Assembly (NCBI GenBank): GCA_031392695.1
Contig: JANMVM010000106.1
Span: 697 to 64,696, forward strand
DNA from: Rubrivivax sp.
GTDB lineage: Bacteria; Pseudomonadota; Gammaproteobacteria; Burkholderiales; Burkholderiaceae_C
Direction: 5' to 3'
Length of the DNA stretch: 64,000 bases
The translations under genes were made by a program, and so were the position numbers. Below are positions 24,261 through 58,893 of this stretch, in pieces. How positions within the stretch are numbered: position 1 is the first letter of the stretch; every line of letters begins with the position of its first letter. The notes beneath the pieces are model-generated. The model worked only from the letters and a program-made list of their open reading frames with translations. It was not told the origin of the DNA and did no database searches.

Positions 24261-24285
24261 GGCGGCATCATGCCGCCTGGCGCGC

Positions 24286-35111: not shown

Positions 35112-36506
<1,395 letters not shown>

Positions 36507-36512
36507 GCAGCC

Positions 36513-37820
36513 ATGACCTCGTCCCCACTTCATGTCTGCAGCGTCCGGGCGTCGGCGATGCGCGCTGCGCTGGCTGCGTTGGCTGCGTTGGCTGCGCTGG
36601 CGCTGGCCGCGAGCCCCGCGATGGCGCAGTCCAGCCCCTGGTACCTGGGCGCATCGACCGCGCTGAGCCACGACTCGAACCTGCTGCGGCTGGGCGACAA
36701 CCAGCCACCCGGCAACGGTGAGAGCCGCTCCGACACCCTGCTCAGCACGGCACTCGTGGGTGGCCTCAACCAGGGCATCGGGCGCCAGCGCGTCACCGCC
36801 AGCCTGACGCTGCGCGACAACCGCTTCGACCACAACACCAAGTACAACAACCAGAGCTACAACGGCGCGCTGGGCCTGGAATGGTCAACGGTGGAGCGGG
36901 TGTCAGGCTCGCTCACAGCCGGCGCCTCGCGCAACCTGTCGACCTTCAATGCCGACGTGCTGGGGCTGTTGCCCGAGAAGAATTTCGAGACCACGCAGGG
37001 TCTCAACGCCAGCCTGAGCATCGGCCTGGTGACGCAGTACAGCCTGGAGCTCGGCGCCGGCCATCGCCAGGTGCGAAATTCGCTGGACATCGAGTCGGTG
37101 CAGGCGCGCAACTACAACCAGGACGAGTGGTCGGTGGGTGTGGTCTGGCGGCCGCTAGCCAGTTTCAGCCTGACCTCGGCGCTGCGCGGCGTGCAGGGCG
37201 AGTTTCCCAAGTTCAGCCCCACGGCCACGGGCTTTGATACCGACAAGTTCCGCCAACAGCGGCTCGAACTGGTGGCCGCGCTGCAGCCCACGGGCGCCAG
37301 CACGCTGGACGCTAGGCTGAGCTTCGGCGAGACGAAGTACGTGGTCAACACGCAGCGCGACTTCTCCAACGTCAGCGGGTCGCTGGGCTGGCAGTGGCAG
37401 GCCAGCGGCAAGTTGCGGCTCAACACCCGCCTGTCGCGCGACGAGGGGCAGGACAACTATGCCACCCGTGTCGGCCTGCTGCGCGTCACGATCAACGATC
37501 GCCGCGTCATCTCCACGCTGCGCCTGCAGGCCGACTGGGACGTGGCGGCCAAGCTGGCCTTGTCCAGCAGCCTGCAGCAAGCCAGGCGCCAGGTGAATCG
37601 CGACACCCTGGCCAACCTCAGCACCGGCACGCTGTCGCTGGGCCTGGACAACGGCACCGACACGACGACCATCTTCACCTTCGGCGCGCGCTGGTCGCTG
37701 TGGCGAAATGCCGTGCTGGGCTGCGACGCGCGCGCCGAGAAGCGGCGTGCCACGGGCACCATCACCACCGGTCTGAGCGGCAACAGCCTCAACTGTTACG
37801 GCCAGATCACGATCCAATGA
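36513..37820 (+). CDS. Outer-membrane beta-barrel polysaccharide biosynthesis protein (EpsL-like)
   Basis: Signal peptide (with a 9-bp x4 repeat at 36564-36599), HDSNLLRL, alternating beta-strand pattern, position after the priming GT. Start may be 36558. Confidence 0.7.
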   Translation: MTSSPLHVCSVRASAMRAALAALAALAALALAASPAMAQSSPWYLGASTALSHDSNLLRLGDNQPPGNGESRSDTLLSTALVGGLNQGIGRQRVTASLTLRDNRFDHNTKYNNQSYNGALGLEWSTVERVSGSLTAGASRNLSTFNADVLGLLPEKNFETTQGLNASLSIGLVTQYSLELGAGHRQVRNSLDIESVQARNYNQDEWSVGVVWRPLASFSLTSALRGVQGEFPKFSPTATGFDTDKFRQQRLELVAALQPTGASTLDARLSFGETKYVVNTQRDFSNVSGSLGWQWQASGKLRLNTRLSRDEGQDNYATRVGLLRVTINDRRVISTLRLQADWDVAAKLALSSSLQQARRQVNRDTLANLSTGTLSLGLDNGTDTTTIFTFGARWSLWRNAVLGCDARAEKRRATGTITTGLSGNSLNCYGQITIQ

Positions 37821-38836
37821 CGACCACCGTGCTGCTCACCGGGGCCACCGGCTACATCGCGTCGCACACCTGGCTGGCCTTGTGGGAGGCCGGCTTCGAG
37901 GTCGTGGGTGTCGACGATTTATCCAACAGCTCGCCGCTGGTGCTGCAGCGGCTGCAGGCGCTGGGCGGCCGTGTGCCCGCCTTCGAAAAGGCCAACGTGT
38001 GCGACGCAGCGGCCATGGAAGCGCTGTTCCGGCGCTACCGCATCGACGCCACGGTGCACTTCGCCGCGCTCAAGGCGGTGGGCGAATCGACGGCGCAGCC
38101 GCTGGCCTACTACGCCAACAACCTGGGCGGGCTGCTCAACGTCTGCCGCACCATGCAGCGTCACGGCGTCAAGCGCCTGGTATTCAGCTCCAGCGCCACG
38201 GTCTACGGTGACCCGCAGACGCTGCCGATCCGCGAGGACGCGCCGCTGGCCGCCACCAACCCCTACGGCCAGACCAAGCTGATGGGCGAACAGATGCTGC
38301 GCGACCTGGGCGTGTCCGATGGGCAGTGGCAGACCGCCTGCCTGCGCTACTTCAACCCCGTCGGTGCCCATGCCAGCGGCCTGATCGGCGAAGACCCGCG
38401 CGGCATCCCCAACAACCTGATGCCCTACGTGGCGCAGGTGGCGGTCGGCCGCAGGCCGCGCCTGGCGGTGTTCGGCAACGACTACCCGACACCCGACGGC
38501 ACCGGTGTGCGCGACTACCTCCACGTCACCGACCTGGCGCAGGGCCATGTCGCGGCGCTGAAGCGGTTGCTCGGCCAGGCCGGTTCGCTGACCGTGAACC
38601 TGGGCACCGGCCGCGGCTATAGCGTGCTCGAAGTCGTGGCCGCCTTCGCTGCCGCCAGTGGCCGCGACGTCCCCTATGAACTGATGCCGCGCCGCGCCGG
38701 CGACGTGGCCTCGTGTTACGCAGACCCCGCACTCGCACGCGAGTTGCTGGGCTGGAACGCCGAGTTCGACCTGGCACGCATGTGCGAAGACAGCTGGCGC
38801 TGGCAATCTCTGAACCCGCGAGGATTTGAAGCATGA
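37817..38836 (+). CDS. galE: UDP-glucose 4-epimerase
   Basis: TGATGYIASH, HFAALKAVGES, YGQTK, LRYFNP, PNNL. Confidence 0.95.
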   Translation: MTTTVLLTGATGYIASHTWLALWEAGFEVVGVDDLSNSSPLVLQRLQALGGRVPAFEKANVCDAAAMEALFRRYRIDATVHFAALKAVGESTAQPLAYYANNLGGLLNVCRTMQRHGVKRLVFSSSATVYGDPQTLPIREDAPLAATNPYGQTKLMGEQMLRDLGVSDGQWQTACLRYFNPVGAHASGLIGEDPRGIPNNLMPYVAQVAVGRRPRLAVFGNDYPTPDGTGVRDYLHVTDLAQGHVAALKRLLGQAGSLTVNLGTGRGYSVLEVVAAFAAASGRDVPYELMPRRAGDVASCYADPALARELLGWNAEFDLARMCEDSWRWQSLNPRGFEA

Positions 38837-40284
38837 ACCCCACGTCCAGTACCTCACCCGCTGCAAGGATCCTGACCTGGCCCGTGGTCATGGCCGGTGG
38901 CTCGGGCACGCGCCTGTGGCCGCTGTCGCGCAGTGGCTTCCCCAAGCAGTTTCTGGTCCTGTCCGGCACCAGCAGCCTGTTTCAGCAGGCCGTCTCGCGC
39001 CTCACGGGCCTGGCCGATGAGCGCATTGAAGTGGCCCGGCCGGTGGTCGTCGGCAATGAGGAACACCGCTTCCTGGTGCTCGACCAGTTGCGCGAGATCC
39101 GGGCCGAGCCCGCAGCGGTGCTGCTGGAGCCGATGGGACGCAATACCGCCCCGGCGATCACCTTGGCAGCGCTGCAGGCCCTGGAAGGTGGCGCCGACCC
39201 GGTGCTGGTCGTGACCCCGGCCGACCAGACGGTGACCGATGGCGCTGCCTTCACGGCGTCGCTGCGGCGCGCGGTGCACGGTGCCGCCGAGGGCGCCATC
39301 GTGATCCTGGGCGTGACGCCGGACCGGCCGGAAACCGGCTATGGCTACGTCCGCGCCGACGGCCAGCGCGTGGCGCAGTTCGTCGAGAAGCCCGATGCCG
39401 TGACGGCGCAGAAGTACCTGGCGGCCGGCGGCTACTACTGGAACGCCGGCATGTTCGTGTTGCGCGCTTCGGTGTGGATGGCGGCGCTGGAGCGCTTCCG
39501 CCCCGATATCGCCACCGCCTGCCGCGCTGCATTCGCGGCGCGCAGCAGCGACGCCGCCTTCGTGCGCCCGGGCAAGGCCGAATTCGCGGCCGTGCCCAGC
39601 GAGTCGGTGGACTACGCGGTGATGGAAAAGTGCCCCGGCGTGCTCGACATCCGCATGGAGCCGTTGGCCGCCGGCTGGAACGACCTGGGGGCCTGGGAAG
39701 CCGTGTGGCAGGTCTCGCCCAAGGACGCGCGCGGCAACGCCCACGTCGGCGACGTGCTCTTCAGCGACTGCGACAACTCGCTGGTCCACGCCACCAGCCG
39801 GCTGGTGGGCGTGGTCGGCCTGCACGACGTCGTCGTCGTCGAGACGCCCGACGCGGTGCTCGTGTCCAGCCGCGAAAAGAGCCAGGACGTGAAGAACATC
39901 GTCACGCGCCTGGGCAGCGAGCAGCGCGGCGAGCACGCGCTGCACCGCAAGGTCCACCGGCCCTGGGGCTGGTACGACGGCATCGACCGCGGCCCGCGCG
40001 ACCAGGTCAAGCGCATCATGGTCAAGCCCGGCGCCTCGCTGAGCCTGCAGATGCACCACCACCGCGCCGAGCACTGGATCGTCGTCACCGGCACCGCCGA
40101 AGTCACGGTGGGCAACAAGGTGATCCTGCTGGCCGAAAACCAGAGCACCTACATCCCGCTCGGTGAGACGCACCGGCTGCGCAACCCCGGCAAGGTGCCG
40201 CTAGAGATCATCGAGGTGCAGTCGGGCAGCTACCTCGGCGAGGACGACATCGTGCGCTTCGAAGACACCTACGGCAGAACATGA
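38833..40284 (+). CDS. manC: Mannose-1-phosphate guanylyltransferase / mannose-6-phosphate isomerase
   Basis: [26 protein letters not shown]-terminal cupin RPWG...[12 protein letters not shown]. Confidence 0.95.
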
Positions 40285-40286
40285 GG

Positions 40287-40363
40287 CGCCCAGGCTTGTC
40301 GCTTCGCGCCTTCGCCACTCCCCAGGGGGGCTCTTGCAGCGGCCCGACGAAGCCGCTTCCGCG
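40287..40363. repeat. Degenerate REP-like interspersed element
   Basis: CGCCCAGGCTT...CCCC-A-GGGGG...GCGGCCCGACGAAGCCGCTTCCGCG between manC and rmlB. Resembles a Burkholderiales repeat family from memory only. Confidence 0.4.
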
Positions 40364-40396
40364 CAAGGCCTTGATCACAGACCACCGAGCGATTCC

Positions 40397-41458
40397 ATGA
40401 CCATCCTCGTCACCGGCGGCGCCGGCTTCATCGGCAGCAACTTCGTGCTCGACTGGCTGGCCACACAGGCTGAACCGGTCGTCAACCTCGACGCCCTGAC
40501 CTACGCCGGCAACCTGCAGAACCTGGCCGCGCTGCAAGGCGATGCGCGGCACGTCTTCGTCAAGGGCGACATCGGCGACCGCGCGCTGCTCGATGAACTG
40601 CTGGCACATCACCGGCCGCGCGCGGTGTGCCACTTCGCGGCCGAAAGCCACGTCGACCGCAGCATCCATGGCCCCGGCGCTTTCATGAAGACGAATGTCG
40701 AGGGCACCTTCACCCTGCTGGAAGCCACGCGGGGCTACTGGAGCGCGCTGGCCGACGACGCGAAGGCTGCGTTCCGCTTCCACCACGTCAGCACCGACGA
40801 GGTCTACGGCAGCCTGGCGCCCGATGCCCCCGCCTTCACCGAGACCCATGCCTACGAGCCCAACAGCCCCTACTCGGCGAGCAAGGCGGCCAGCGATCAC
40901 CTCGTGCGCGCCTGGCACCACACCTATGGGCTGCCGGTGGTCACCACCAACTGCAGCAACAACTACGGCCCCTATCACTTCCCCGAGAAGCTGATCCCGC
41001 TGATGATCGTCAATGCCCTGGCCGGCAAGCCGCTGCCGATCTACGGCGACGGCCAGCAGGTGCGCGACTGGCTCTACGTCGGCGACCACTGCAGCGCCAT
41101 CCGCGCCGTGCTGGCCGGCGGGCGGCTCGGTGAGACCTACAACATCGGCGGCTGGAACGAGTTGACCAACCAGGAGATCGTGGACACGGTCTGCGCGTTG
41201 CTCGACGAGCTCTCGCCCAACCCTGCGGGCCCCTACACGCGCCTGATCACCCACGTCAAGGACCGGCCGGGCCACGACCGCCGCTACGCCATCGACGCGC
41301 GCAAGATCGAGCGCGAACTGGGCTGGCGGCCGGCACAGACCTTCGAGACCGGCATTCGCAAGACGGTGCAGTGGTACCTGGCCAACACGGCCTGGGTCGC
41401 CAACGTGCAAAGCGGCGGCTATCGCGACTGGCTCGACACGAACTACCACGCCCGATGA
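40397..41458 (+). CDS. rmlB: dTDP-glucose 4,6-dehydratase
   Basis: [33 protein letters not shown]. Confidence 0.96.
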
Positions 41459-41501
41459 TGCCCAGCACGCACTCCTTGCCGACGGCCCGACGGCTACGGC
41501 G

Positions 41502-42398
41502 ATGAAGATCCTCCTGCTCGGCAAGAACGGCCAGGTCGGCTGGGAACTGCAGCGCTCGTTGGCCATCCTCGGTGACGTGGTGGCCTGCGACTTCGATTCG
41601 CCGGCAGCACTCCGGGCCGACTTCTCGGACCCTGAATCGCTGCTGGCCCTGATCCGCCGCGAGCGGCCGCACGCCATCGTCAACGCGGCCGCCCACACCG
41701 CCGTCGACAAGGCCGAAAGCGAGCCCGACCTGGCGCGCCGGATCAACGCCACGGCGCCGGGGGTCATCGCGCGCGAGGCCGCGGCGCTGGGCGCGAGCCT
41801 GGTGCACTACAGCACCGACTATGTCTTCGACGGCAGCGGCGAGCAGCCACGCGACGAGTCCGCCGCCACCCACCCGCTGAGCGTCTACGGCCGCACCAAA
41901 CTCGAGGGCGAGGAGCTCATCCGCGCCAGCGGCTGCCGCCATCTCATCCTGCGCACGAGTTGGGTCTACGCCGCGCGCGGCGGCAATTTCGCGCGCACCA
42001 TGCTGCGTCTGGCGGCCGAACGCGAAGAACTCAAAGTCATCGCCGACCAGTGGGGCGCGCCCACCGGCGCCGATCTGCTGGCCGACATCACGGCGCTGGC
42101 GCTGCCGCGGCTGCAGGCCGATGCAGCGCTGGCCGGCACCTACCACTGCGCGGCCGCCGGCGCGACCCACTGGCACGGCTACGCCCACCTGGTCATCGAG
42201 TGGGCGCGCGCCCACGGCCACACCGTCAAGATGGCTCCAGAACGCTTGCTGGCGATCGCCACCGAGGCCTACCCCACAGCCGCGCGCCGGCCGCTGAATT
42301 CACGGCTCGACACGGCGAAGCTGCGCACCACCTTCGGTGTCACGCTGCCCGCGTGGCAGGCCGGCGTGCAACGCATGCTGAGCGAAGTGCTCGGCTGA
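41502..42398 (+). CDS. rmlD: dTDP-4-dehydrorhamnose reductase
   Basis: [28 protein letters not shown]. Confidence 0.95.
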
Positions 42399-42415
42399 AC
42401 CCACAGGGACACCCC

Positions 42416-43297
42416 ATGAATCGCAAAGGCATCGTCCTCGCCGGGGGCTCCGGCACCCGGCTGCACCCGGCCACGCTGGCCATGAGCAAGCAACTGCTGC
42501 CGGTGTATGACAAACCAATGGTGTACTACCCCTTGTCGACGCTGATGCTGGCCGGCATCCGCGACGTGCTCGTCATCAGCACGCCGCAGGACACGCCGCG
42601 CTTCGAGGCACTGCTGGGCGACGGCAGCCGCTGGGGCATGAACCTGAGCTATTGCGTGCAACCCAGCCCCGACGGCTTGGCACAGGCCTTCATCCTGGGC
42701 CGCGGCTTCGTCGGCGGCGGGCCCAGCGCCCTGGTGCTGGGCGACAACATCTTCCACGGCCACGACCTGGCTTTGCAACTGGGGCGCGCCGACAAGCGCA
42801 CGGCGGGCGCGAGCGTCTTCGCCTACCACGTCACCGATCCCGAACGCTATGGCGTGGTCGAGTTCGACCCCCAGCGCCGCGCGCTCAGCATCGAGGAAAA
42901 GCCCAAGTCGCCGAAGAGCAACTACGCCGTCACGGGTCTGTATTTCTACGACGAGCAGGTGTGCGAGATCGCCGCGCGCATCAAACCCAGCGCGCGCGGT
43001 GAGCTCGAGATCACCGAGGTCAACGCCCAGTACCTGCGCCAGGACCAGCTCCATGTCGAGATCATGGGCCGCGGCTTCGCCTGGCTGGACACCGGTACCC
43101 ACGACAGCCTGCTCGAGGCGGGCCAGTTCATCGCCACGCTGGAAAAGCGCCAGGGTCTGAAGGTCGCCTGCCCGGAGGAGATCGCCTTTCGTGCCGGCTG
43201 GATCGACGCCAGCGCGATCGAGGCGCTGGCCGCGCCGATGCTCAAGAACAGCTACGGCCAGTACCTGATGCAACTGCTGCGCGAAAAGGCGTACTGA
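42416..43297 (+). CDS. rmlA: Glucose-1-phosphate thymidylyltransferase
   Basis: [40 protein letters not shown]. Confidence 0.96.
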
Positions 43298-43299
43298 AC

Positions 43300-43875
43300 A
43301 TGAAACTCGTGCCCACCGCGCTGCCTGGCGTCGTCATCGTCGAGCCGGCCGTCTTTGGCGACGAGCGGGGCTGGTTCATGGAGAGCTTCAACGAGGCGCG
43401 CTGGCAATCGCAGCTGCAGGCGCTCGGACTGCCGCCCTCGCGCCGCTTCGTGCAGGACAACCACTCCTGCAGCCAGGCCGGCGTGCTGCGCGGCCTGCAC
43501 TACCAATTGCCGCCGCATGCCCAGGGCAAGCTGGTGCGCGTGACGGCCGGCTCGGCCTACGACGTGGCGGTGGACATCCGCCAGGGCTCGCCCACATTCG
43601 GCCACTGGGTGGGGACGCAGCTGGATGCCATCGACCACCGCCAACTCTGGATCCCCGAAGGCTTTGCACACGGCTTCATGGCACTCGAGGACAACACGCA
43701 CTTCCTCTACAAGACCACCGACGTCTACGCCAAGGACTGCGAGCGCAGCATCCGCTGGGACGATGCGCAACTGGCCATCCCCTGGCCCGTGTTGGCCGGC
43801 GCTCCGCGCCTGGCGCCCAAGGACGCAGCAGCGGTCCGCTTGGCCGAGGCCGATCTGCCGCCCTGGAGCGCCTAG
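43300..43875 (+). CDS. rmlC: dTDP-4-dehydrorhamnose 3,5-epimerase
   Basis: DERGWFMES, VQDNHS, GVLRGLH, GFAHGF. Confidence 0.95.
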   Translation: MKLVPTALPGVVIVEPAVFGDERGWFMESFNEARWQSQLQALGLPPSRRFVQDNHSCSQAGVLRGLHYQLPPHAQGKLVRVTAGSAYDVAVDIRQGSPTFGHWVGTQLDAIDHRQLWIPEGFAHGFMALEDNTHFLYKTTDVYAKDCERSIRWDDAQLAIPWPVLAGAPRLAPKDAAAVRLAEADLPPWSA

Positions 43876-43894: not shown

Positions 43895-43923
43895 AAAAAA
43901 CCGCAGCCCAGGGCTGCGGTTTT
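43895..43923. terminator. Bidirectional Rho-independent terminator
   Basis: AAAAAA-CCGCAGCC-CAG-GGCTGCGG-TTTT between convergent rmlC and the csp gene. Confidence 0.85.
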
Positions 43924-43941: not shown

Positions 43942-44229
<288 letters not shown>

Positions 44230-44354: not shown

Positions 44355-45596
44355 TCAGGCTGCGACGGGGCGAGAGGCACACGGCGTCTTGTCGGTCGGC
44401 CGGGAGATCCGGCGCGGCGCCTTGTCGCGCCACAGCCGTCCCAGGGCCTGCACGGCTTGCGGCATCGGCTGGTGGTGGTTGCCAACGAAAAGGCCGTGGC
44501 TGTCCAGGTGCTGCGCGTGACGCAGGACACCATGGATCTGGTGGTCGAAATACTGCACCACCGGGTTCTTGGCGAAGTTGCCGGCGACCACGGGCCGACA
44601 CTCGAAGCCGGCTTGTCGCAGGTCGGCGACCAGTTCGCGCCGCGTCCTGCGCACGCCCGGCTTGATGACGAGACTGAAACCGAACCAGCTGCTGCGGCCG
44701 ATTTCGCGCTGCATCATCAGGCAGGGATGGTCGGCCATCACCGTTTGCAGTTCGCGCGCGTTCTCGCGCCGCGCAGCAATGAGGCCCGGCAGACGCTTGG
44801 CCTGCTCGATGCCGAGCGCCCCCGACATCTCGAGCGGCCGCATGTTGTAGCCCGGCAGCACGAAGCGAAACGATTCCTCGAAGGGATCGGCGCTCTTGGT
44901 GCCGCAGACGTGATTGTGCTCGGGCAGGTTGCGCGTCCAGCCATGCGCCCGCAGGCACAGCATGATGTGGTGGAGCTCCTCGTCGTCGGTCACCACCATG
45001 CCGCCTTCCATGGTCGAGATGTGGTGCGAGAAGAAGGCGCTGAAGCTGCCCATGACACCGAAGGTGCCGGTGTGCTTGCCCCCCAGGGTGGCGCCCATCG
45101 ATTCGCAGTTGTCCTCGATGAGCACGATGTCGCGGCCTGCGGTGAGCGTGCGGATGGCGTCGAAATCGTTGGGGTTGCCCAGCAGGTTGACGGCCATGAT
45201 GGCGCGCGTGCGCGTCGTGATCGCCGTCTGCAGTTGCTCGAGGTCGAAGTTGAGCGTGTGCGGATCGATGTCGACGAACTTCAGGCGCAGCCCATACTGG
45301 TACAGCGGCGAGTAGGTGGTGCTCCACGACACCGCCGGCACGATGACCTCGTCGCCACGCTGCAGCCGCAGCCGCGGATTGCGGGTGAAGAACAGCGCCG
45401 CCACCATCAGCAGGTTGGCCGAGGAGCCGGAGTTGACCATGACGCAGTGGCGGCTGCCCGTGTAGCGCGCGAAGTCGCTCTCGAAGGTGGCCACCCTTTC
45501 GCCCATCGTGAAGTGGCCCTTGGCAATGACCGCCTGCAGGGCCTCGTACTCTTCGGGACCCCAGGAAGACTTGGCCAGCGGGAATCGGAAGTTCAT
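44355..45596 (-). CDS. colD: GDP-4-keto-6-deoxy-D-mannose 3-dehydratase (ColD-like, DegT/DnrJ fold)
   Basis: PLP fold with FSAFFSHHISTMEGG: His at the position of the catalytic Lys, the ColD hallmark. Also FPLAKSSW N-terminus, VNSGSSANL, GYNMRP. Confidence 0.85.
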   Translation of the reverse strand: MNFRFPLAKSSWGPEEYEALQAVIAKGHFTMGERVATFESDFARYTGSRHCVMVNSGSSANLLMVAALFFTRNPRLRLQRGDEVIVPAVSWSTTYSPLYQYGLRLKFVDIDPHTLNFDLEQLQTAITTRTRAIMAVNLLGNPNDFDAIRTLTAGRDIVLIEDNCESMGATLGGKHTGTFGVMGSFSAFFSHHISTMEGGMVVTDDEELHHIMLCLRAHGWTRNLPEHNHVCGTKSADPFEESFRFVLPGYNMRPLEMSGALGIEQAKRLPGLIAARRENARELQTVMADHPCLMMQREIGRSSWFGFSLVIKPGVRRTRRELVADLRQAGFECRPVVAGNFAKNPVVQYFDHQIHGVLRHAQHLDSHGLFVGNHHQPMPQAVQALGRLWRDKAPRRISRPTDKTPCASRPVAA

Positions 45597-46534
45597 GGCT
45601 GCTCCATTGCAAGGAAGTAGGCGTAACAGCGCGCCAGGCCTTCGTCCAGGGTGTGGCGCGGCGCCCAGCCCCAGGCGGTCTGGCGCGACACGTCCACGAG
45701 CTTGCGTTGCATGCCCACCGGGCGACCGAGGTCGTGCCTGAAGTCTCCCGCCCAGCCGACCACGCGGGCCACGGCGGCGTAGTAGTCGTTGACCGAGTGG
45801 TCGCGCCCCAGGCCGATGTTCATCAGCTCGGGCGCGCTGTGGCCCTGACTGACGTGGCGCACCACTGCGTCGGCCAGATCGGCGGCATCCATGAACTCGC
45901 GACGCGCCGTGCCGTCGCCCCAGATGTCGACGCTGCTCGCGCCGCTGCGCATGGCGCGGTGGACCTTGAGCAGCGCGGCGGCCACGAGGTGCGAGCGCTC
46001 GGGCTCGAAGTGGTCGTAGCGGCCGTAGAGGTTGCACGGGATGAGCGTGCGGTACTCCAGCGTCGGCTCCTGCCGTCGCAGGTACATGCACAGGCGTGCG
46101 GCGTAGATCTTGGCCAGGGCGTAACCTTCGTTGGTGGGCTCAAGCTCGCCCTGAAGCACCTGCTCCTCGCGCAGCGGATTCGTACCGCCGCGCGGGTACA
46201 TGCAGGAGCTGCCCAGGTTGATCAGCTGCGGCACGCCGCAGGCCTGCGCCGCGAGGATCACGTTGCGGCCGATGTCGACGTTGCGCACGAGAAAGTCCAC
46301 CGGCCGCGCGATGTTGGCGTGGATGCCGCCGACCAGTCCGGCAGCGTGGATCACTACCTGCGGGCGCACATCGCGCATGAAGGCCTGCACCGCGTCGCCG
46401 CGCTCCAGGTCCAGTTCGGCGCGGCGGGGCGCCATCAGTTGCCAGGCGCGGGCGCCTGCGTGCTCGCTGATGTTGCGGCCAACCATGCCAGCGCCGCCCG
46501 TGAGCAGGACACGCAAGGCTTGCGGCGAGCTCAT
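45593..46534 (-). CDS. GDP-sugar epimerase/reductase (WcaG/Fcl family; ColC-like given ColD adjacency)
   Basis: TGGAGMVG, AGLVGGIHAN, LGSSCMYP, TNEGYALAK, PCNLYG, WGDGTARREF. Confidence 0.88.
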   Translation of the reverse strand: MSSPQALRVLLTGGAGMVGRNISEHAGARAWQLMAPRRAELDLERGDAVQAFMRDVRPQVVIHAAGLVGGIHANIARPVDFLVRNVDIGRNVILAAQACGVPQLINLGSSCMYPRGGTNPLREEQVLQGELEPTNEGYALAKIYAARLCMYLRRQEPTLEYRTLIPCNLYGRYDHFEPERSHLVAAALLKVHRAMRSGASSVDIWGDGTARREFMDAADLADAVVRHVSQGHSAPELMNIGLGRDHSVNDYYAAVARVVGWAGDFRHDLGRPVGMQRKLVDVSRQTAWGWAPRHTLDEGLARCYAYFLAMEQP

Positions 46535-46659
46535 TTCGCCTCCGCGGCCGGCCGGTGGCCGTGCGTGCCAGTCCCGCGGCCTGCGGTAGCCCGGCAAGGA
46601 ACGTCCTGGCCGGTGATGCCGGTGATCAGTGCGGTCTTGCCGCTGCGGGAGGATGTCAT
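46531..46659 (-). pseudogene. gmd: GDP-mannose 4,6-dehydratase remnant (large internal deletion)
   Basis: MTSSRSGKTALITGITGQD (Gmd N-terminus) followed by 23 unrelated codons and a TGA overlapping the downstream ATG. Upstream AAAGGA RBS intact. Confidence 0.8.
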
Positions 46660-46829
46660 CGGGGGGGAGTCCTTTGCTCGGCACCCCCGCGCCGACAGCC
46701 TGGCCCTGGCCTGGCGGGCCCGGACTGAACTGCAGCCGCTGGCTCGCCGGCCCGTCCTGCGCGGAGGTGCTGCCTAGTGTGGTTCGACCCCGCCGTTGGT
46801 GATGCCTCGAGATCGACCTCTTTTCGCGC

Positions 46830-47507
46830 CTAGTTCCGCCGCGGGCGGATGCGAAAGCCGAACTGCAGGAAGCGCGTGTCGCCCTGGCCTCGCAGCGTCG
46901 CCAGCTCAAGCAGCGCCAGCGTCGCTGCCCAGCGCAAGCGCCCAGGCCAGGGGGAATGGGCGATGATGCTGTTGAGCCCCACCAGGGCTTCGACCTCGAA
47001 GCCCTGTTCGACCACGGTGCGCTCAAGACTGCGCGCGGTGAAGAAACGCAAGTGGGTACGGTCGAGCACGCCTTCGTCGGCGTAGGCCCAGTCCTTGTGC
47101 AAGACGAGTTGCAGCAGGTTCGGCAGGTAGCGCACGTTGGGCACCGAGCCGACCATCACCGCGCCCGGCGCCATCTTGGCCTGCACGGCCTGCAGGAAGG
47201 CCTCGGGGTTGGCCATGTGCTCGATGACGTCGTTGCAGATCACGAGGTCGAAATGGCGATCGGGCAGGCGGCTCGCGACGTCTTCGAAGGTGCCGTGGAT
47301 GACCTCGTCCAGCACCGCGCGCGCTTCGTCGGCAGCGCCGGCGGCGGGCTCGATGCCCCAGTAGCTCTGGCGCTGCGGCACCTGGGCTGCAAAGCGCCCG
47401 GCACCGCAGCCGACTTCGAGCACGTGGGTGCTGCGCGCGGGCAGCAGCGCAGCGACTTCAGGGCGCGGGTTGGCGAAGTACGCGGGCTTAGGGCGGTTGG
47501 CTGGCAC
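46830..47507 (-). CDS. Class I SAM-dependent methyltransferase
   Basis: VLEVGCGAG motif I, DLVICNDVIEH, THLRFFT. Confidence 0.88.
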   Translation of the reverse strand: MPANRPKPAYFANPRPEVAALLPARSTHVLEVGCGAGRFAAQVPQRQSYWGIEPAAGAADEARAVLDEVIHGTFEDVASRLPDRHFDLVICNDVIEHMANPEAFLQAVQAKMAPGAVMVGSVPNVRYLPNLLQLVLHKDWAYADEGVLDRTHLRFFTARSLERTVVEQGFEVEALVGLNSIIAHSPWPGRLRWAATLALLELATLRGQGDTRFLQFGFRIRPRRN

Positions 47508-47555
47508 GGCGGGGTCCTCGCGGGTGGAGCGGCGACGGGTCTTCGGGCACTCGGC

Positions 47556-49049
47556 TCAGGGCTGCGACGACGCGCGTCGCTGCCAGAGCTGGCGCAGGCG
47601 CAGACGCTCGGCTGGTAGCAGCATCGCCTGCCAGCCGTAGGCAACGAACAGCAGGCCGCCGATGAGCACCACCGCCAGCGCGGCAGCCCAGGTGCGGCAC
47701 GGCTGCGCCGCGGCAAAGAGCGCCCCGGCGACGGCGGCCGGCAGCCCGGCGCGCCACCAGGGCCAGGGCCCGGACACCAGGCTGCGGCGCGCCAGCGCGA
47801 AGACGGCCGCTGCGTCGAGCGCGAAGCGCAGGGTCGCGGCCGCCGCCGTGCCCACGATGCCCCAGCGCGAGGTCAGCGCCCACAGCAGCAGCAGGAACAG
47901 CGGCAGCTCCAGCGCATGCAGCAAGGCCATGTCGCGCGGCCGGCCGGCGGCCTGGATCAGCGTCGCCGGCCCTTGCGTGAGGGCGTTGAGAAACATACCG
48001 ACGATCAGGATCTGCAGGACGGCCGCAGCCTGCGGCCCGATCTCGGGGCCCAGCCACGCGCCCATCGCCGGCTGGGCCAGCGCCATGGCCATGAACATCA
48101 TCGGCAGGCTGGTCAAGAACAGATAGCGGCTGATGTCGGACAGGGCCGCGCCCGCTTGCGGGCTGCGCGGCACCAGGGCCGTGGCGCGCGGGAAGTACGC
48201 CGCCACCACCGCATACGGGACCACCATGATCCTGCTGGCCAGATCGTAGGGCGCCGAGTAGATGCCCACGGCGCGCAAGGGCACGAGGGTGGCGATGAGC
48301 AGTCGGTCGAGGTAGGTCAGCAACGGCCCGATGAGGTTGGACACGCTCATCCAGCCGCCCAGCGCCAGCAACTCGCGCGTGAACTCCCGCTGCGGCCACG
48401 CCGGCCACCAGCGAAAGCCGAAACGGCGCCGGCACGACGCCGCAAAGGCCCAGGTGCCCACCACGCGCAGCGCCAGGATCGTTGCCACCACGACCGGCAA
48501 GTCCACCCCACCGGCCAGCGCCACGGCCAGCGGCAGCGCATAGCTCAGCATGCTGAAGGTCGCCCGGATCAGGTTCAGCGATTTGAAGTCCTGGTGCGCG
48601 GTGAGCACGCCCGCATAGCCGCTGGTCAGCATCACGAAGGGCAGCGACAGCGCCAGCAGCCACAGCGCCTGCAGCGCCTCGGCCTCGAGCGCCGGCGGCA
48701 CCCTCAGCGCGCGCTGCACGAGCCAAGGCGCCAGCAGCGCCGCCGCTGCGCCCATCAACAGCCCGAACAGCAGCAGGAAAGTCAGGCCCGTGCGAGCGCT
48801 GTCCGCGGCGCCGGCCGCGTCGTCGCGCGCCAGCCGCGACGACACGGTGCGGATGACGGCGCGGCCGATGCCCAGGTCGAACAAGCTGGCATAACCGATC
48901 AGCACCCAGGCCAGCGCGATGAAGCCAAAGCGCTCGAGGCCGACGAGCCTGATCAGCCAGGGAATGCAGACCAGTGCTACCGCGAGCGGCAGCACCTGCC
49001 CGGCCAGGTTCCAGGCCGTCCCCGACAGCAGTCGGTGGCCCGGCTTCAC
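47556..49049 (-). CDS. wzx: Wzx flippase
   Basis: WNLAGQ, ERFGFIAL, DLGIG, DRLLIA...GIYSAPY, ~12-14 TM helices. Probable GTG start. Confidence 0.88.
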   Translation of the reverse strand: MKPGHRLLSGTAWNLAGQVLPLAVALVCIPWLIRLVGLERFGFIALAWVLIGYASLFDLGIGRAVIRTVSSRLARDDAAGAADSARTGLTFLLLFGLLMGAAAALLAPWLVQRALRVPPALEAEALQALWLLALSLPFVMLTSGYAGVLTAHQDFKSLNLIRATFSMLSYALPLAVALAGGVDLPVVVATILALRVVGTWAFAASCRRRFGFRWWPAWPQREFTRELLALGGWMSVSNLIGPLLTYLDRLLIATLVPLRAVGIYSAPYDLASRIMVVPYAVVAAYFPRATALVPRSPQAGAALSDISRYLFLTSLPMMFMAMALAQPAMGAWLGPEIGPQAAAVLQILIVGMFLNALTQGPATLIQAAGRPRDMALLHALELPLFLLLLWALTSRWGIVGTAAAATLRFALDAAAVFALARRSLVSGPWPWWRAGLPAAVAGALFAAAQPCRTWAAALAVVLIGGLLFVAYGWQAMLLPAERLRLRQLWQRRASSQP

Positions 49050-49216
49050 GGCCTGCCGCCGCGGCCGTGGCCCGGCCCGCGGATCTGTGTGCAAGGGTGT
49101 CGGCAGGCTTCATCAGCGGCCGCGGCAGCCGATATCCAGAGCACAGACCCGGTAAGCATCGCGCCGCGCCGCCACGCCGGGTCGGGCTCTTCCACGCAAG
49201 TCCGGCGCTGCACCCC

Positions 49217-50125: not shown

Positions 50126-51388
50126 TCAGCGGGCCGGTGCGCCGGCCGCCAACAGCGCCACCGGCAGGCGCACGCCCAGGCGGCTGTAGAGGGCCAGCAT
50201 GGCCTGGGTGTAGCCGGCGCGCGAGAACCGCGCCGCCACCTGCCGCCGCGCCTCGGCGCCCATGGCGGCCAGGCGCTCGTTGCTGCAGCCCTGGACCTGC
50301 GCCAGCCGCAGCGCCAGCGCGTCGACCGAGCCGCTGTCGAAGAGCCAGCCGGTGCTGTCGTGCTCGATCAGTTCAGGGATGCCGCCGATGCGCGCGCCGA
50401 CCACCGGCTTGCCCAGCGCCAGGCCCTCGATCACGCTCATGGGAGCGTTTTCGTACCACTCCGAGGGCAACACCACGCAGCGCGACTGGCGCACCAACTC
50501 GTGCAGCGCCGCGCCCGACTGGAAGCCCACAAAGTCCACCGGCGCATCCAGTGATTGCGCCAGCGCGCGCAGCGCGGCTTCCTCGGGTCCGCTACCGGCG
50601 ATCCTGAGCGGCATGCCGGCGCGCTGGGCGGCGCGGATCAGCGTCGCGACGCCCTTTTCCGGCGCCAGGCGGCCGAAGTACAGCGCATAGCTGCCGGGGC
50701 TGAACTGCGGCACGAAGGTCTCGACATCGACGAAATTGGGGATCACCTCCAGCTGTGCCGGGTCCCAGCCCCATTCGACGAACTTGTCGCGGAAGAAGCG
50801 GCTCGGGCAGACCACCGCCGAGAGGTGGCGCTGCCAGGTCTGCAGCATGCGGTGCAGGCCGCTTTCCACTGCCACCACGACGCTGGCGGCGAGCGAGTTG
50901 CGCACGCAGCGGTGGCGCACCACGTTGAGCACCGAGCCGGTCTTGCAGCGCTCGCAGATGCCGCCGCGGTTGAGCATCTTGTAGGCCGGGCAGGCGATCT
51001 TCAGGTCGTGCGCCGTCATCACCACCGGGATGCCGCGCTGCGTCAACAGCGGCAGGATCGCCGGCGACAGGTGGTGGTAGATGCAGTGCAGGTGCGCGAC
51101 GTCGGCCGCAAAACGGTCGAGCAGCCGGCCGAGCTTGCGCTGCGCCTCCAGCGAATAGACCACCTTGGTGGCCATGGCCAGCTTCTGGCCCAGGCCATAA
51201 GGCTGCCCGAACTCGAGCTCGTCGATGAAGTCCACGCTCCAGGGCGTGGGCTCGTTGCGCGGGTGGTGCATCGAGAAGTAGCCGACCTCGAAGCCCAGCG
51301 CCTGCATCAGCGCCGCGTGCTCGAAGTACACCACGTCGGCGCCGCCGCGCCGGTAGTGGTAGTTGTTGACGTTGAGCAGGCGCGTCAT
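50126..51388 (-). CDS. Glycosyltransferase family 4
   Basis: NNYHYRRGGA, YFGRLAPEKG, EWYENAPMSVIE (E-x7-E), GGIPE. Confidence 0.9.
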   Translation of the reverse strand: MTRLLNVNNYHYRRGGADVVYFEHAALMQALGFEVGYFSMHHPRNEPTPWSVDFIDELEFGQPYGLGQKLAMATKVVYSLEAQRKLGRLLDRFAADVAHLHCIYHHLSPAILPLLTQRGIPVVMTAHDLKIACPAYKMLNRGGICERCKTGSVLNVVRHRCVRNSLAASVVVAVESGLHRMLQTWQRHLSAVVCPSRFFRDKFVEWGWDPAQLEVIPNFVDVETFVPQFSPGSYALYFGRLAPEKGVATLIRAAQRAGMPLRIAGSGPEEAALRALAQSLDAPVDFVGFQSGAALHELVRQSRCVVLPSEWYENAPMSVIEGLALGKPVVGARIGGIPELIEHDSTGWLFDSGSVDALALRLAQVQGCSNERLAAMGAEARRQVAARFSRAGYTQAMLALYSRLGVRLPVALLAAGAPAR

Positions 51389-52656
51389 GGCGCAGCAGTC
51401 GGCGGCATGGCGGCGGCGCGTGCCGCGGCCGCCAGTCGTTCGGACAGCACGCCCGCGGTGAAGTAGAAGAACGCGATCGCGGTGTAGTTGGTGGTCAGGT
51501 TCTCGGAGAACAGGTAGACCACCACCACCAGCAGCGGCACCGTCTCCCAGCGCCGGCCACAGCGCGCCAGCACGAGGCCGATCATGCCCACGAAGCCGGC
51601 GAGCGTGACAACGCCGAACTCGAACAGGTAGCGCAGGTAGTCGTTGTGGGGCACGAGGTGCATGTCCGACAGCCGGATCGAAGAGCCGACGCCAAAGCCG
51701 AACAGCCAGTGGTAGGCATCGGCGCGAGCGAACTCGCTCAGCAGGTCGACCCAGTGCTTGAGGCGGAAGATGAACGACAGGTCCGAGGTCTTGAGCGCCA
51801 GCACGAGCTCGGCAAAGGTCACGGTGTGCAGGTTGATGCGGCCTTCGAGCAGCAGCCGCATGCTGTCCACCACTGGCGTGATGCGCGCAAAGGGGCCGAA
51901 GGTCGGCGCCAGCGCGTAGCCTGCCGCGGCGGCCACCACCAGGGCCAGCAGCAGCCCCAGCTCGCGCGGCCGCGCCACCGTGAGCGCCAGCGCGATGACC
52001 ACCGCCAGCAGCACGCCCAGCGTGCCGAACATGACCCCCACGGCCATGAAGAGAAGCAGGCTGCGCAGCGGCTTGCCGGTGATCACGGTGTAGATGCCGA
52101 GCAAAGTCACGGCGTAGACGGCGGCGTTGTTGCGGTTGGCAAAGATCGAGGTCTCGCGCACGCCGTCGACCTGGAAGCCGCTCTGCACCAGCTGCGCCGC
52201 CCAAGTCAGCAGCGGCACCACGACGAGCAGTCCGAAGAGCACGCGCACGATCGGCCTCTGCCACAGGAAGGCGGCCCCGCGCGAGCGTTCGAAGGCGGCG
52301 CCGAAGATCAGGAAGGCCGGCGCGAGGCTGAGCTTGACGAGGTCGCCCCACAGGATGTGCGCCGGGTTGACGATCAGGCTGCAGGCGATGCCGGTCATGT
52401 AGACCAACCAGCACACCACCACCGCCGTGGCCCAGCGTGAGGGCGGGTGGGCGCGCGTCATCCAGGCGAAGGCGACGAGGCCGAAGATGACCACCGCGTA
52501 GACGTTGGCGATGACCTTGAGCAATCCCGATTGCGCCACCACGGCCAGCGCGAACAGCAGCACATAGGCCGTGAACTGGGCCAGGAACAGCACCGTGCCG
52601 TCGGCCGGCCGCGGTGCGGCGGCTGTGGTGCGCATGAAGGAAGTGGGCCGACGCAT
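51385..52656 (-). CDS. Wzy polymerase / O-antigen ligase-like membrane protein
   Basis: ~10 TM helices, SIFANRN, SFIFRL..W, FGFGVG, PHNDYLR loop. Confidence 0.75.
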   Translation of the reverse strand: MRRPTSFMRTTAAAPRPADGTVLFLAQFTAYVLLFALAVVAQSGLLKVIANVYAVVIFGLVAFAWMTRAHPPSRWATAVVVCWLVYMTGIACSLIVNPAHILWGDLVKLSLAPAFLIFGAAFERSRGAAFLWQRPIVRVLFGLLVVVPLLTWAAQLVQSGFQVDGVRETSIFANRNNAAVYAVTLLGIYTVITGKPLRSLLLFMAVGVMFGTLGVLLAVVIALALTVARPRELGLLLALVVAAAAGYALAPTFGPFARITPVVDSMRLLLEGRINLHTVTFAELVLALKTSDLSFIFRLKHWVDLLSEFARADAYHWLFGFGVGSSIRLSDMHLVPHNDYLRYLFEFGVVTLAGFVGMIGLVLARCGRRWETVPLLVVVVYLFSENLTTNYTAIAFFYFTAGVLSERLAAAARAAAMPPTAAP

Positions 52657-52679: not shown

Positions 52680-53978
52680 TCAGAGCGAGCCGGCCGGCGG
52701 CGGCGCGAAGGCCTGGCGCAGCGCGTCGGCGCTGCGCGTCCAGCTGAACTGGCCGCGGATCAGCTCACGCGCCGCGTCGCCGATCTGCGCCTGCCGCTGC
52801 GGCGACTGCAGCAGCGCCACGGTGGCAGCCGCGAAGCCTGCCGCGTCGGCCCCTGTCAGGCCCTGGCCATGCACGCCTTCGTCAAAACCGGCGATGCCGT
52901 TGAAGGCGGCGCGCCCGCCCACCACGGGCAGGGCGCTGGCCATCGCCTCGAGCGTCTTGTTGATGAGCCCGAAGCCCTTGAACACCGGGCTCCAGACGAC
53001 GCCAGTGCCGGCGTAGACCGGAGCCAGGTCGGCGGCGAAGTCCAGGTGCTCGACACCGGCGGTGGCGGCCAGCCGCTGGCGCAAGCGCGGCGACGCGCCG
53101 CCGCCGACGACGAGCAGCCGTGCCGCCGGCTGCGCCGCCAGCACCGCCGGCCAGACCTGCGTGCACAGCCACTCGGTGACGGCGGCGTACTCACCGCTGA
53201 GCTCGGCCACGAAGAGCACCTGCTCGCCGCGCCGGGGCTGGAGCTGGAACAGATCCGGGCGCACGCCATTGGGCACCACGAGACAACGCGCGGCGGTGGC
53301 CGCGCCGACGAGATCGTGCATCGCCTGGCGATCGGCCTCGGTCTGCACCAGCACGCGGCTGTAGTCGGCCAGCAGCGCGGCCTCGATGCGACCGATGAGG
53401 GGCGCACGCCAACCGTCGAGCCAGGCCTTGGCGCGCGCCGCGGCGCCGCCCGGCACCGAGCGCAGGCGCCAGCGGTATTCGGCCGTGGTGCAGTCGTTGA
53501 CCGCCGCCACCTGCAGGCGCGGGCGCAGCGCCGGCTGCGCACGCCGCAGCACCCGCCACTGCGCCACCGCACTCATCGGCGAGACCAGCACCCGGGTGAA
53601 GGCCGCCGGGTCCAGCGCCGGCCCGCCGGCAGCGCGCCAGCCGTGCTGGAACATCTCGCTGCCGGCCAGCTCAGCCAGCGCGCGCGTGGCCTGGGGCCGC
53701 CGCTGCAGCGCCACCGCGGTGATGGCGCCGTAGCGGCGTTCATTGGCGTCCCAGTCGGCCGCCGCCGGCGCCGCACCCCGCCCCTGCAGCAGGCACACCG
53801 AAACTCGCTGCGTGCCGCGCAGTTGCTCAAGGTGGTTGAACAGCGGCAAGGTGATGCCGTTGCGCGGCGGGTAGGGCAGCTGATCGGTCACGAGCGTGAT
53901 GGGCTCGTCGCTCCAGCGGCGGTCCTGCATGCCGTCCTGCATGCCGTCCTTGGGGCGGTCTTTGATGCCGTCCTTCAT
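52680..53978 (-). CDS. Glycosyltransferase family 4-like
   Basis: YPPRNG, VPNGV, GFGLINKTLEAMASALPVV. Confidence 0.82.
   Translation of the reverse strand: MKDGIKDRPKDGMQDGMQDRRWSDEPITLVTDQLPYPPRNGITLPLFNHLEQLRGTQRVSVCLLQGRGAAPAAADWDANERRYGAITAVALQRRPQATRALAELAGSEMFQHGWRAAGGPALDPAAFTRVLVSPMSAVAQWRVLRRAQPALRPRLQVAAVNDCTTAEYRWRLRSVPGGAAARAKAWLDGWRAPLIGRIEAALLADYSRVLVQTEADRQAMHDLVGAATAARCLVVPNGVRPDLFQLQPRRGEQVLFVAELSGEYAAVTEWLCTQVWPAVLAAQPAARLLVVGGGASPRLRQRLAATAGVEHLDFAADLAPVYAGTGVVWSPVFKGFGLINKTLEAMASALPVVGGRAAFNGIAGFDEGVHGQGLTGADAAGFAAATVALLQSPQRQAQIGDAARELIRGQFSWTRSADALRQAFAPPPAGSL
53928..53978. repeat. 12-bp tandem repeat at the GT start
   Basis: Minus-strand units ATGAAGGACGGC/ATCAAAGACCGC/CCCAAGGACGGC/ATGCAGGACGGC encode MKDG-IKDR-PKDG-MQDG(-MQDR). 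Confidence 0.75.
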
Positions 53979-58871: not shown

Positions 58872-58893
58872 CTCTCGCGCTCCCTCGGAAGAA

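What the first reader, a model, noticed from the sequence alone, without database searches (positions are those of the whole stretch)
44355..46534. Colitose (3,6-dideoxyhexose) biosynthesis genes in an environmental PEP-CTERM EPS cluster
Seen: the DegT-fold protein carries His in place of the Schiff-base Lys (SHHISTMEGG) and is coupled to a WcaG-type reductase; manC is in the other arm. Known: Gmd -> ColD -> ColC makes GDP-L-colitose, characterised mainly in O-antigens/capsules of enteric bacteria, Vibrio and some marine bacteria, and usually transferred by a GT11-type enzyme. Inference: colitose in an exosortase-linked betaproteobacterial polymer or on PEP-CTERM glycoproteins would be new to my knowledge, and no GT11 is visible, implying an unrecognised colitosyltransferase.
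Basis: partly seen in the sequence, partly recalled or inferred. Interest (0 to 1): 0.68.

Follow-up and report, generated by a model that had tools for sequence, protein, structure and literature searches.

The report
Colitose genes with deleted first enzyme
Two genes at the end of a slime-polysaccharide operon in a freshwater betaproteobacterium are true copies of the last two enzymes that make the rare sugar colitose, but the gene for the step that feeds them is reduced to a 129-base stub, so the pathway is probably switched off; the gene set itself is common in environmental bacteria.

Summary
Window 44355-45596 (-) encodes a ColD orthologue: E=1e-158 to E. coli O55 ColD, with His at the catalytic His188 position (SHHISTMEGG). 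Window 45593-46534 (-) encodes a ColC orthologue, joined to colD by an ATGA overlap. It is 46% identical and gapless to E. coli O55 ColC, and a tree splits it from true GDP-fucose synthases at 100/100 support.

The setting is also as described: an XrtB exosortase EPS cluster with EpsD/E/F/G/I/L, two GT4 genes, wzx and a Wzy-like gene, with manC and rmlBDAC in the other arm. No GT11 is found anywhere in the genome.

- Relatives carry a fixed gmd-colC-colD cassette (74 of the 80 best loci). Here gmd is a 42-codon remnant, and no other gmd is found in the 92%-complete assembly. The same deletion is in four other assemblies. Without GDP-4-keto-6-deoxymannose, ColD has no substrate.
- The cassette is not rare. 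A pattern scan found 306 stretches across GTDB species genomes, many of them environmental Betaproteobacteria.
- GT11 lies within 6 kb in only 18 of 80 cassettes, so its absence implies little.

Most likely this is an orphaned colitose cassette (about 0.57). The main rival is an active pathway fed by an unassembled gmd (about 0.33).

The parts
44355..45596 (-). [quoted passage not shown] His191 is the equivalent of E. coli His188. It carries a 22-aa C-terminal tail that its closest relatives lack.
   Evidence: 2gms E=1e-158; PF01041, 256 bits; 61% identity to the E. coli O55:H7 CB9615 gene; tail.
45593..46534 (-). colC: GDP-L-colitose synthase orthologue, 313 aa. Its stop region overlaps the colD start (ATGA). 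A GGAGG ribosome-binding site lies inside the gmd remnant.
   Evidence: 46% identity, gapless, E=2e-115 to E. coli O55 ColC; ColC clade 100/100 against Fcl; 294 bits on the Fcl HMM, where true Fcl scores 448-540; S107/C109/Y136/K140/H179 equivalents conserved.
46531..46659 (-). gmd remnant: a 42-codon ORF (MTSSRSGKTALITGITGQD...AEAK*). It keeps the ribosome-binding site, the start, the Rossmann motif and the stop that overlaps the colC start. About 1000 nt of the gene are missing.
   Evidence: sequence; 54/60 nt identical to the 5' end of the intact gmd of L017; no other gmd in the genome; same remnant in L001-L003.
46830..47507 (-). SAM-dependent methyltransferase, 225 aa.
   Evidence: PF13489, 89.6 bits.
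47556..49094 (-). Wzx-type flippase.
   Evidence: PF01943, PF13440.
50126..51388 (-). GT4 glycosyltransferase (a).
   Evidence: PF00534, 108 bits.
51385..52656 (-). Polytopic membrane protein, 423 aa. Wzy/O-antigen-ligase-like (HNDYL motif, at least 7 hydrophobic segments). No family hit.
   Evidence: no hit.
52680..53978 (-). GT4 glycosyltransferase (b), similar to TIGR03087.
53975..54844 (-). Soluble 289-aa protein of unknown family.
   Evidence: no hits; no homologue near any of 80 colD loci.
54873..55625 (-). EpsI-type exosortase partner (DUF3485).
55625..56515 (-). Exosortase B (XrtB/EpsH).
   Evidence: TIGR03113, 371 bits, cut-off 275.
56512..60686 (-). EpsG tyrosine kinase, EpsF chain-length determinant, EpsE export protein and EpsD PPIase.
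35268..38836 (+). Other arm, first part: WcaJ-type undecaprenyl-phosphate glucose phosphotransferase (only the matched part is marked; its start is unresolved), EpsL outer-membrane protein and GalE.
38833..43875 (+). Other arm, second part: manC, then rmlB, rmlD, rmlA and rmlC.
43942..44151 (-). Cold-shock protein gene between the two convergent arms. A bidirectional terminator lies at 43897-43923.

Best explanation
colD and colC are authentic orthologues of the last two enzymes of the GDP-L-colitose pathway. In an intact pathway ColD, a PLP/PMP enzyme that uses His as its catalytic base in place of the usual Lys, removes the C3 hydroxyl of GDP-4-keto-6-deoxy-D-mannose. ColC then epimerises C5 and reduces C4 to give GDP-L-colitose.

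The two genes are the surviving tail of a standard gmd-colC-colD cassette that sits at the 3' end of an XrtB exosortase-type EPS operon. In this species gmd has suffered an internal deletion of about 1 kb, which leaves a 42-codon stub. No other GDP-mannose 4,6-dehydratase is in the assembly. ColD therefore has no substrate, and the colitose branch is most likely inactive. The EPS would then be built from the sugars still supplied by the cluster: Glc/Gal (WcaJ-type transferase, GalE), Man (ManC) and L-Rha (RmlBDAC).

Shown: the identity of the genes, the deletion, its presence in four other assemblies, and the absence of gmd and GT11 from the assembled genome. Inferred: loss of colitose synthesis.
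For: - ColD identity.
- ColC identity.
- The canonical order (manC)-gmd-colC-colD holds in 74 of the 80 best colD loci. It also holds in the nearest relatives L017, L022, L119 and L132.
- The remnant keeps 54/60 nt of the gmd 5' end and the ATGA junction, but lacks all catalytic parts.
- No gmd in the own genome, by the TIGR01472 HMM (only rmlB and one weak SDR hit) or by tblastn with a relative's Gmd.
- gmd is an accessory gene in this genus: 11 of 18 species have it, so there is no guaranteed housekeeping copy.
- No Fcl is found elsewhere in the genome either.
- The same deletion is in contigs from another MAG and two SRA assemblies. A third SRA contig begins at colC, with no room for an intact gmd.
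- No GT11 in the genome.
- The cluster holds only two recognised GTs plus the priming transferase for four other available sugars.
Against: - colC and colD are fully intact. Across five assemblies they differ only by 1-3 synonymous changes.
- Neither protein evolves faster than its sisters that keep gmd. ColC is in fact slower (Tajima tests; short terminal branch).
- A second lineage (L117) also has wzx-colC-colD with no gmd and both genes intact. This hints that gmd may be dispensable in cis.
- The genome is a MAG of 454 contigs and 91.8% completeness, so a gmd could lie in the unassembled part.
Confidence: 0.57

Rival explanations
1. The pathway is active. A gmd elsewhere in the genome, in the unassembled ~8% and for example paired with fcl as in congeners, supplies GDP-4-keto-6-deoxymannose. 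The cis copy became redundant and was lost. Colitose is made and added to the XrtB-linked EPS (or to LPS) by a transferase that is not GT11.
For: - colC and colD are intact, with no non-synonymous change among five assemblies and no rate acceleration.
- The favoured tree implies independent gmd-less wzx-colC-colD arrangements in L117 and in the window.
- 11 of 18 congeners carry a gmd at other loci, usually next to fcl.
- Only 18 of 80 cassettes have a GT11 nearby, so other transferase families must serve elsewhere.
Against: - No gmd and no fcl in 5.0 Mb of assembly, by HMM or by tblastn.
- The low diversity of colC/colD is uninformative. Divergence drops abruptly at the remnant/colC boundary (about 2% to about 0.1%), which looks like a recombination mosaic and not purifying selection.
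- None of the cluster's GTs or unknown proteins has a homologue next to colD in 80 other loci.
Confidence: 0.33
2. ColD and ColC have been taken over for another substrate that does not need Gmd, such as a different GDP-4-keto sugar (for example heptose-derived), and make a product other than colitose.
For: - Other ColD-like enzymes elsewhere in this scan were read as acting on heptose-derived substrates. These are earlier notes, not tested here.
- The pair persists without gmd in two lineages.
Against: - The protein is 61-65% identical to biochemically and structurally characterised E. coli ColD. It sits in a clade whose members almost always have gmd upstream.
- A heptose 4,6-dehydratase is a Gmd homologue and would have been picked up by the TIGR01472 search, which found nothing.
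Confidence: 0.05
3. The reductase is an ordinary GDP-fucose synthase and the DegT protein is an aminotransferase.
For: The best PDB hits of the reductase are named GDP-L-fucose synthase. PGAP names even the E. coli O55 genes generically.
Against: - His, not Lys, occupies the Schiff-base position.
- The tree separates the reductase from Fcl at 100/100, with six fixed residue differences.
- It scores 294 bits on the Fcl HMM, against 448-540 for true Fcl of relatives.
- GDP-fucose synthesis would need gmd just as much.
Confidence: 0.02

Closest known systems
GDP-L-colitose pathway of E. coli O55/O111 and Yersinia pseudotuberculosis O:6/O:7 (ManC, Gmd, ColD/WbdK, ColC/WbdJ)
   Same: ColD is 61% identical to the E. 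coli O55:H7 CB9615 gene and has the same His-for-Lys active site. ColC is 46% identical and gapless, with the Ser/Tyr/Lys and Cys/His catalytic residues conserved. colC and colD are adjacent and translationally coupled, as in E. coli.
   Different: E. coli O55 has its own gmd and a GT11 transferase (annotated as alpha-1,2-fucosyltransferase) in the O-antigen cluster. Here gmd is a 42-codon stub and no GT11 exists. The setting is an exosortase-type EPS operon, not an O-antigen locus between galF and gnd.
gmd-colC-colD cassettes of environmental Proteobacteria (e.g. Rubrivivax sp. MAG OTE_70, Roseateles asaccharophilus, Paucibacter hankyongi, Pandoraea communis, Acidovorax soli, Nitrosospira multiformis)
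   Same: ColD is 64-82% identical and ColC 52-80%. The gene order is the same. In the nearest relatives the right flank is also the same: csp, rmlCADB, manC, galE.
   Different: Those cassettes keep an intact gmd. The nearest ones (L017, L119, L132) lack the EpsE-to-MT core of the XrtB operon at this locus.
XrtB/EpsH exosortase EPS system (Methylobacillus sp. 12S methanolan eps cluster type; NCBIfam TIGR03113 and associated EpsD/E/F/G/I/L models)
   Same: XrtB, EpsD, EpsE and EpsF score above the curated cut-offs. EpsG, EpsL and EpsI-type proteins are present, along with a priming glucose-phosphate transferase.
   Different: This cluster carries a deoxysugar tail (rmlBDAC, manC, colC/colD). 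I found no report linking colitose with exosortase systems in the searchable literature.
GDP-L-fucose synthase Fcl/WcaG (E. coli GFS, PDB 1bws; 7ll6)
   Same: Same extended-SDR fold and the same catalytic residues.
   Different: The window protein falls in a separate clade with 100/100 support, shows six fixed residue differences, and scores well below the equivalog cut-off.

Membership tests
[quoted passage not shown] | Fold-type I DegT/DnrJ/EryC1 aminotransferase fold | tested here: met
   PF01041 scores 256 bits over residues 14-372.
[quoted passage not shown] | His in place of the PLP Schiff-base Lys (E. coli His188) | tested here: met
   SHHISTMEGG aligns with SHHIATMEGG of 2gms. The H188N chain 3b8x marks the position. 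The residue is invariant in five relatives.
[quoted passage not shown] | Closer to characterised ColD than to the paralogous E1 (CDP-sugar 3-dehydrase) or perosamine synthase | tested here: met
   531.8 bits to ColD, against 160 bits to E1 and 124 bits to perosamine synthase.
[quoted passage not shown] | 3-dehydratase activity on GDP-4-keto-6-deoxymannose with PLP and glutamate | not testable with these tools
   Needs an enzyme assay.
ColC (GDP-L-colitose synthase) | Groups with the colD-linked ColC of a colitose-bearing E. coli serogroup (O55), apart from Fcl | tested here: met
   In a tree of 22 ColC and 15 Fcl sequences the split has 100/100 support. The window protein lies inside the ColC clade together with E. 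coli O55 ColC.
ColC (GDP-L-colitose synthase) | SDR catalytic Ser-Tyr-Lys plus the Cys/His acid-base pair used for epimerisation | tested here: met
   LGSSC, EGYALAK and RSHLV align with S107, C109, Y136, K140 and H179 of E. coli Fcl.
ColC (GDP-L-colitose synthase) | Encoded next to colD | tested here: met
   ATGA overlap with colD. The same adjacency is seen in 75 of the 80 best colD loci.
Complete GDP-L-colitose pathway | GDP-mannose 4,6-dehydratase (Gmd) present | tested here: not met
   Only a 129-nt remnant is left. No gmd in the genome by HMM or tblastn. The genome is 91.8% complete.
Complete GDP-L-colitose pathway | GDP-mannose supply (ManC) | tested here: met
   manC at 38833-40284 is 86-91% identical to the manC of syntenic relatives.
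Complete GDP-L-colitose pathway | Colitosyltransferase of the GT11 type, as in E. coli O55 | tested here: not met
   0 hits in all genome ORFs with an HMM built from 19 GT11 sequences and by tblastn. The Pfam PF01531 genome search was uninformative because its controls were silent.
XrtB/PEP-CTERM exosortase EPS system | Exosortase B and its EpsD/E/F partners above curated cut-offs | tested here: met
   XrtB 371 bits (cut-off 275), EpsF 544 (423), EpsE 341 (263), EpsD 240 (109). EpsG (291 vs 314) and EpsL (182 vs 275) fall below their cut-offs. EpsI matches DUF3485.
XrtB/PEP-CTERM exosortase EPS system | PEP-CTERM substrate proteins in the genome | not tested
   Not searched.

The most novel reading that the evidence does not exclude
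The organism still makes GDP-colitose with a gmd encoded elsewhere, and a transferase outside family GT11 adds it to the XrtB-linked polymer. Candidates in the cluster are the family-less 289-aa protein and the two GT4 enzymes. This would be the first colitose-bearing exosortase-associated polysaccharide and would point to a new colitosyltransferase family.
Probability: 0.2. Interest if true: 0.5.

Novelty: new member of a known kind. Interest (0 to 1): 0.25.

Why it matters
The result mainly corrects an annotation-level inference. Seeing colD and colC is not enough to predict colitose, because here the first committed enzyme of the pathway has been deleted.

It also shows that the gmd-colC-colD cassette is a common accessory module of freshwater and soil Betaproteobacteria, so finding the genes there is not surprising.

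Two small points of wider interest remain. This EPS locus is being remodelled differently in each close relative. And colC/colD persist without gmd in two lineages. A closed genome and a sugar analysis could turn that second point into a test of whether gmd is shared in trans between glycan pathways.

Tried and rejected
- A Pfam PF01531 (GT11) search of the own genome was uninformative, because no control genome gave a hit either. I replaced it with a home-made HMM.
- Fine mapping of the deletion junction inside the gmd remnant failed. Only the first ~60 nt and the stop/start junction align reliably; the middle ~70 nt aligns ambiguously.
- Using population diversity to test for purifying selection on colC/colD led nowhere. 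There are only 1-3 differences, and divergence drops sharply at the remnant/colC border, which looks like a recombination mosaic.
- Relative-rate tests showed no acceleration, but they cannot date a recent loss.
I could not use reads to check the deletion, gmd copies or expression.
- The promoter/terminator scan of the MT-colC gap found nothing useful.
- Literature searches found no paper that links colitose with Betaproteobacteria, Burkholderiales genera or exosortases in the searchable library. That is an absence in that library only.
- I first read the C-terminal tail of ColD as a sign of decay and then dropped that idea, because L117 has a similar tail.
- I rejected the weak SDR hit at the end of contig C192 as a hidden gmd. 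It gives E=3.5e-10 to TIGR01472 and is 32% identical to RmlB.
Full report
**Observation**

colD runs 45596..44355 (-) and encodes 413 aa. colC runs 46534..45593 (-) and encodes 313 aa. The colC stop region and the colD start overlap in ATGA. Codon-position GC is native for both genes (GC3 0.89, like the neighbouring genes), so neither looks recently imported.

**Identity of ColD**

- Against all PDB chains the best hits are the four E. coli O55 ColD entries: 2gms E=1e-158 (531.8 bits), then 3b8x, 2r0t and 3gr9.
- The CDP-sugar 3-dehydrase E1 follows at 6e-46 and perosamine synthase at 6e-35.
- The window motif SHHISTMEGG aligns with SHHIATMEGG. The chain 3b8x differs from wild type only by N at the first His, which marks that residue as the catalytic His188.
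- The chromosomal gene of E. coli O55:H7 CB9615 is 61% identical.
- Pfam sees only the generic DegT family. NCBIfam has no ColD model; its best hit is RfbH, below cut-off.

**Identity of ColC**

- The reductase scores 294.8 bits on the NCBIfam GDP-fucose-synthase equivalog, whose cut-off is 500.
- True Fcl proteins of 18 related genomes score 448-540 bits on the same model.
- The window protein is 46% identical, without a single gap, to the colD-adjacent reductase of E. coli O55:H7 (E=2e-115).
- In a maximum-likelihood tree of 22 colD-adjacent reductases and 15 Fcl sequences, the two groups separate at 100/100 support. The window protein lies inside the ColC group.
- The catalytic Ser, Tyr, Lys, Cys and His are all conserved. 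Six alignment columns are fixed differently between the two clades.

**Genomic setting**

On the minus strand the order is:

- EpsD, EpsE, EpsF, EpsG
- exosortase B (TIGR03113, 371 bits against a cut-off of 275)
- an EpsI-type DUF3485 protein
- a family-less 289-aa protein
- GT4
- a Wzy-like polytopic membrane protein
- GT4
- a plus-strand lipoprotein gene
- wzx
- a methyltransferase
- the gmd remnant, colC and colD

The convergent plus-strand arm holds a WcaJ-type priming transferase, EpsL, GalE, ManC and RmlBDAC. A cold-shock gene lies between the two arms.

**The missing step**

Between the methyltransferase and colC there is a 295-nt gap. It contains a 42-codon ORF, MTSSRSGKTALITGITGQD...AEAK*, whose stop overlaps the colC start. 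An earlier first-reader note had flagged this ORF.

I aligned it with the intact gmd of the nearest relative, L017 (a Rubrivivax sp. MAG). The ribosome-binding site, the start and the first ~19 codons match at 54/60 nt. The last codons and the ATGA junction also correspond. About 1 kb in between is gone, including every catalytic residue.

- The own genome has 5.0 Mb in 454 contigs and is 91.8% complete.
- The gmd HMM finds nothing above cut-off, only rmlB and a weak SDR fragment.
- tblastn with a relative's Gmd finds only rmlB.
- There is no second Fcl-like gene either.
- In the genus, gmd is accessory (11 of 18 species) and usually sits next to fcl. A housekeeping copy cannot be assumed.

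The same remnant occurs in contigs of another MAG and two SRA assemblies from other samples. A third SRA contig begins at colC, with no room for an intact gmd. The deletion is therefore real and is shared by the sampled population.

**How common the cassette is**

A pattern scan of one genome per GTDB species gave 306 stretches that encode ColD relatives. The best 80 (64-82% identity) are mostly environmental Betaproteobacteria:

- Rubrivivax, Roseateles, Paucibacter, Rhodoferax, Polaromonas, Limnohabitans
- Gallionella, Sideroxydans, Nitrosospira multiformis
- Pandoraea, Polynucleobacter, Acidovorax soli and Methylophilaceae

In 74 of the 80, an intact gmd lies within the locus, in nearly all cases directly upstream of colC, and often with manC before it. 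A published survey of 12,939 genomes also reports predicted colitose pathways across phyla (PMC7725333). Within this genus ColD is rare, in 2 of 61 species. Predicted colitose genes in a betaproteobacterium are therefore not new.

I found no paper that links colitose chemically with these taxa or with exosortase systems, but this holds for the searchable library only. Among the 80 loci, only L017 has an Eps gene (EpsD) within 6 kb of colD, so the juxtaposition with an XrtB cluster is uncommon.

**GT11**

A GT11 gene sits immediately upstream of gmd in some relatives (L013, L018, L020). It lies within 6 kb of colD in 18 of 80 loci. The window's genome has none, even at E<=10 with a purpose-built HMM. 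Most cassettes lack a nearby GT11, and here the pathway lacks its first enzyme. The absence therefore does not by itself point to a new colitosyltransferase. None of the cluster's GT4s or unknown proteins has a homologue beside colD elsewhere.

**Is the pair still in use?**

Arguments that it is:

- colC and colD are intact. Five assemblies differ only by 1-3 synonymous sites.
- Tajima relative-rate tests show no acceleration against sisters that keep gmd. ColC is slower, and its terminal branch is short.
- A second, separately placed lineage (metagenome contig L117) has lipoprotein-wzx-colC-colD with no gmd, no methyltransferase and no remnant, and both of its genes are open. The favoured tree implies two independent gmd losses, although a single loss is not excluded by the strongly supported branches.

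Arguments that it is not:

- The low diversity carries little weight. Divergence falls from about 2% in wzx, the methyltransferase and the remnant to about 0.1% at the colC border, which is a mosaic pattern.
- No gmd could be found.

Weighing a prior of about 0.6 for a trans gmd in this genus against roughly a 0.1-0.15 chance of missing it in the assembly, I put the relic reading at about 0.57 and the trans-supplied active pathway at about 0.33.

**Locus dynamics, noted in passing**

- L017 reads UbiE-EpsD-gmd-colC-colD-csp-rmlCADB-manC-galE. It is syntenic on both sides but lacks the 12-kb EpsE-to-methyltransferase block.
- L119 and L132 read EpsD-GT4b-gmd-colC-colD.
- In this small clade, loci with the eps core lack gmd (window, L117), and loci with gmd lack the eps core (L017, L119, L132).
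- With five loci this is only an observation.

**Verdict**

The functional and novelty inferences are weakened. This is a new member of a known, widespread cassette, here most likely orphaned by loss of gmd.

Read-level confirmation and expression could therefore not be examined.

Noticed in passing
window 46531-46659 (-): A 42-codon remnant of gmd keeps its ribosome-binding site, start codon, Rossmann motif and the ATGA stop/start overlap with colC. It may still act as a short leader ORF that couples translation into colC.
   Followed up: yes
window 44355-44423 (-): ColD carries a 22-aa C-terminal tail (DKAPRRISRPTDKTPCASRPVAA). The closest relatives have a TGA stop after ...LWR(D/G). The gmd-less contig L117 has a similar tail (RERATPRRRAV...).
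   Followed up: partly
window 44355-49094 compared with L001-L004: Divergence between near-identical strains is about 2% in wzx, the methyltransferase and the gmd remnant. It drops to about 0.1% from the colC start onward, which suggests a recombination breakpoint at the remnant/colC border.
   Followed up: partly
L017:1-13170; L119:751-6569; L132:1187-5444; L117:882-5620: Close relatives carry differently eroded versions of this locus. L017 goes straight from EpsD to gmd. L119 and L132 read EpsD-GT4-gmd. L117 has wzx-colC with no gmd. Loci with an eps core lack gmd, and loci with gmd lack the eps core (five loci only).
   Followed up: partly
window 53975-54844 (-) and 49217-50119 (+): A soluble 289-aa protein and a 300-aa lipoprotein inside the operon match no Pfam family. 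The 289-aa protein also matched no NCBIfam family (the lipoprotein was not searched there). Only L117 has a homologue of the lipoprotein (62% identity).
   Followed up: partly
window 33747-36506 (+): The ORF that holds the WcaJ-type priming transferase is 919 aa, but only residues 508-919 match the family. The front overlaps ubiB on the other strand, so the true start is probably much later.
   Followed up: no
window 22563-25981 (-): A ligase-associated DNA damage response pair is present: an ATP-dependent DNA ligase (TIGR04120) and its exonuclease (TIGR04122). Next to them is a protein with a weak CBASS-lipase-like hit.
   Followed up: no
window 43942-44151 (-): The cold-shock protein gene wedged between the two convergent polysaccharide arms is 98.5% identical in protein across species whose neighbouring genes are only 75-87% identical.
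   Followed up: no
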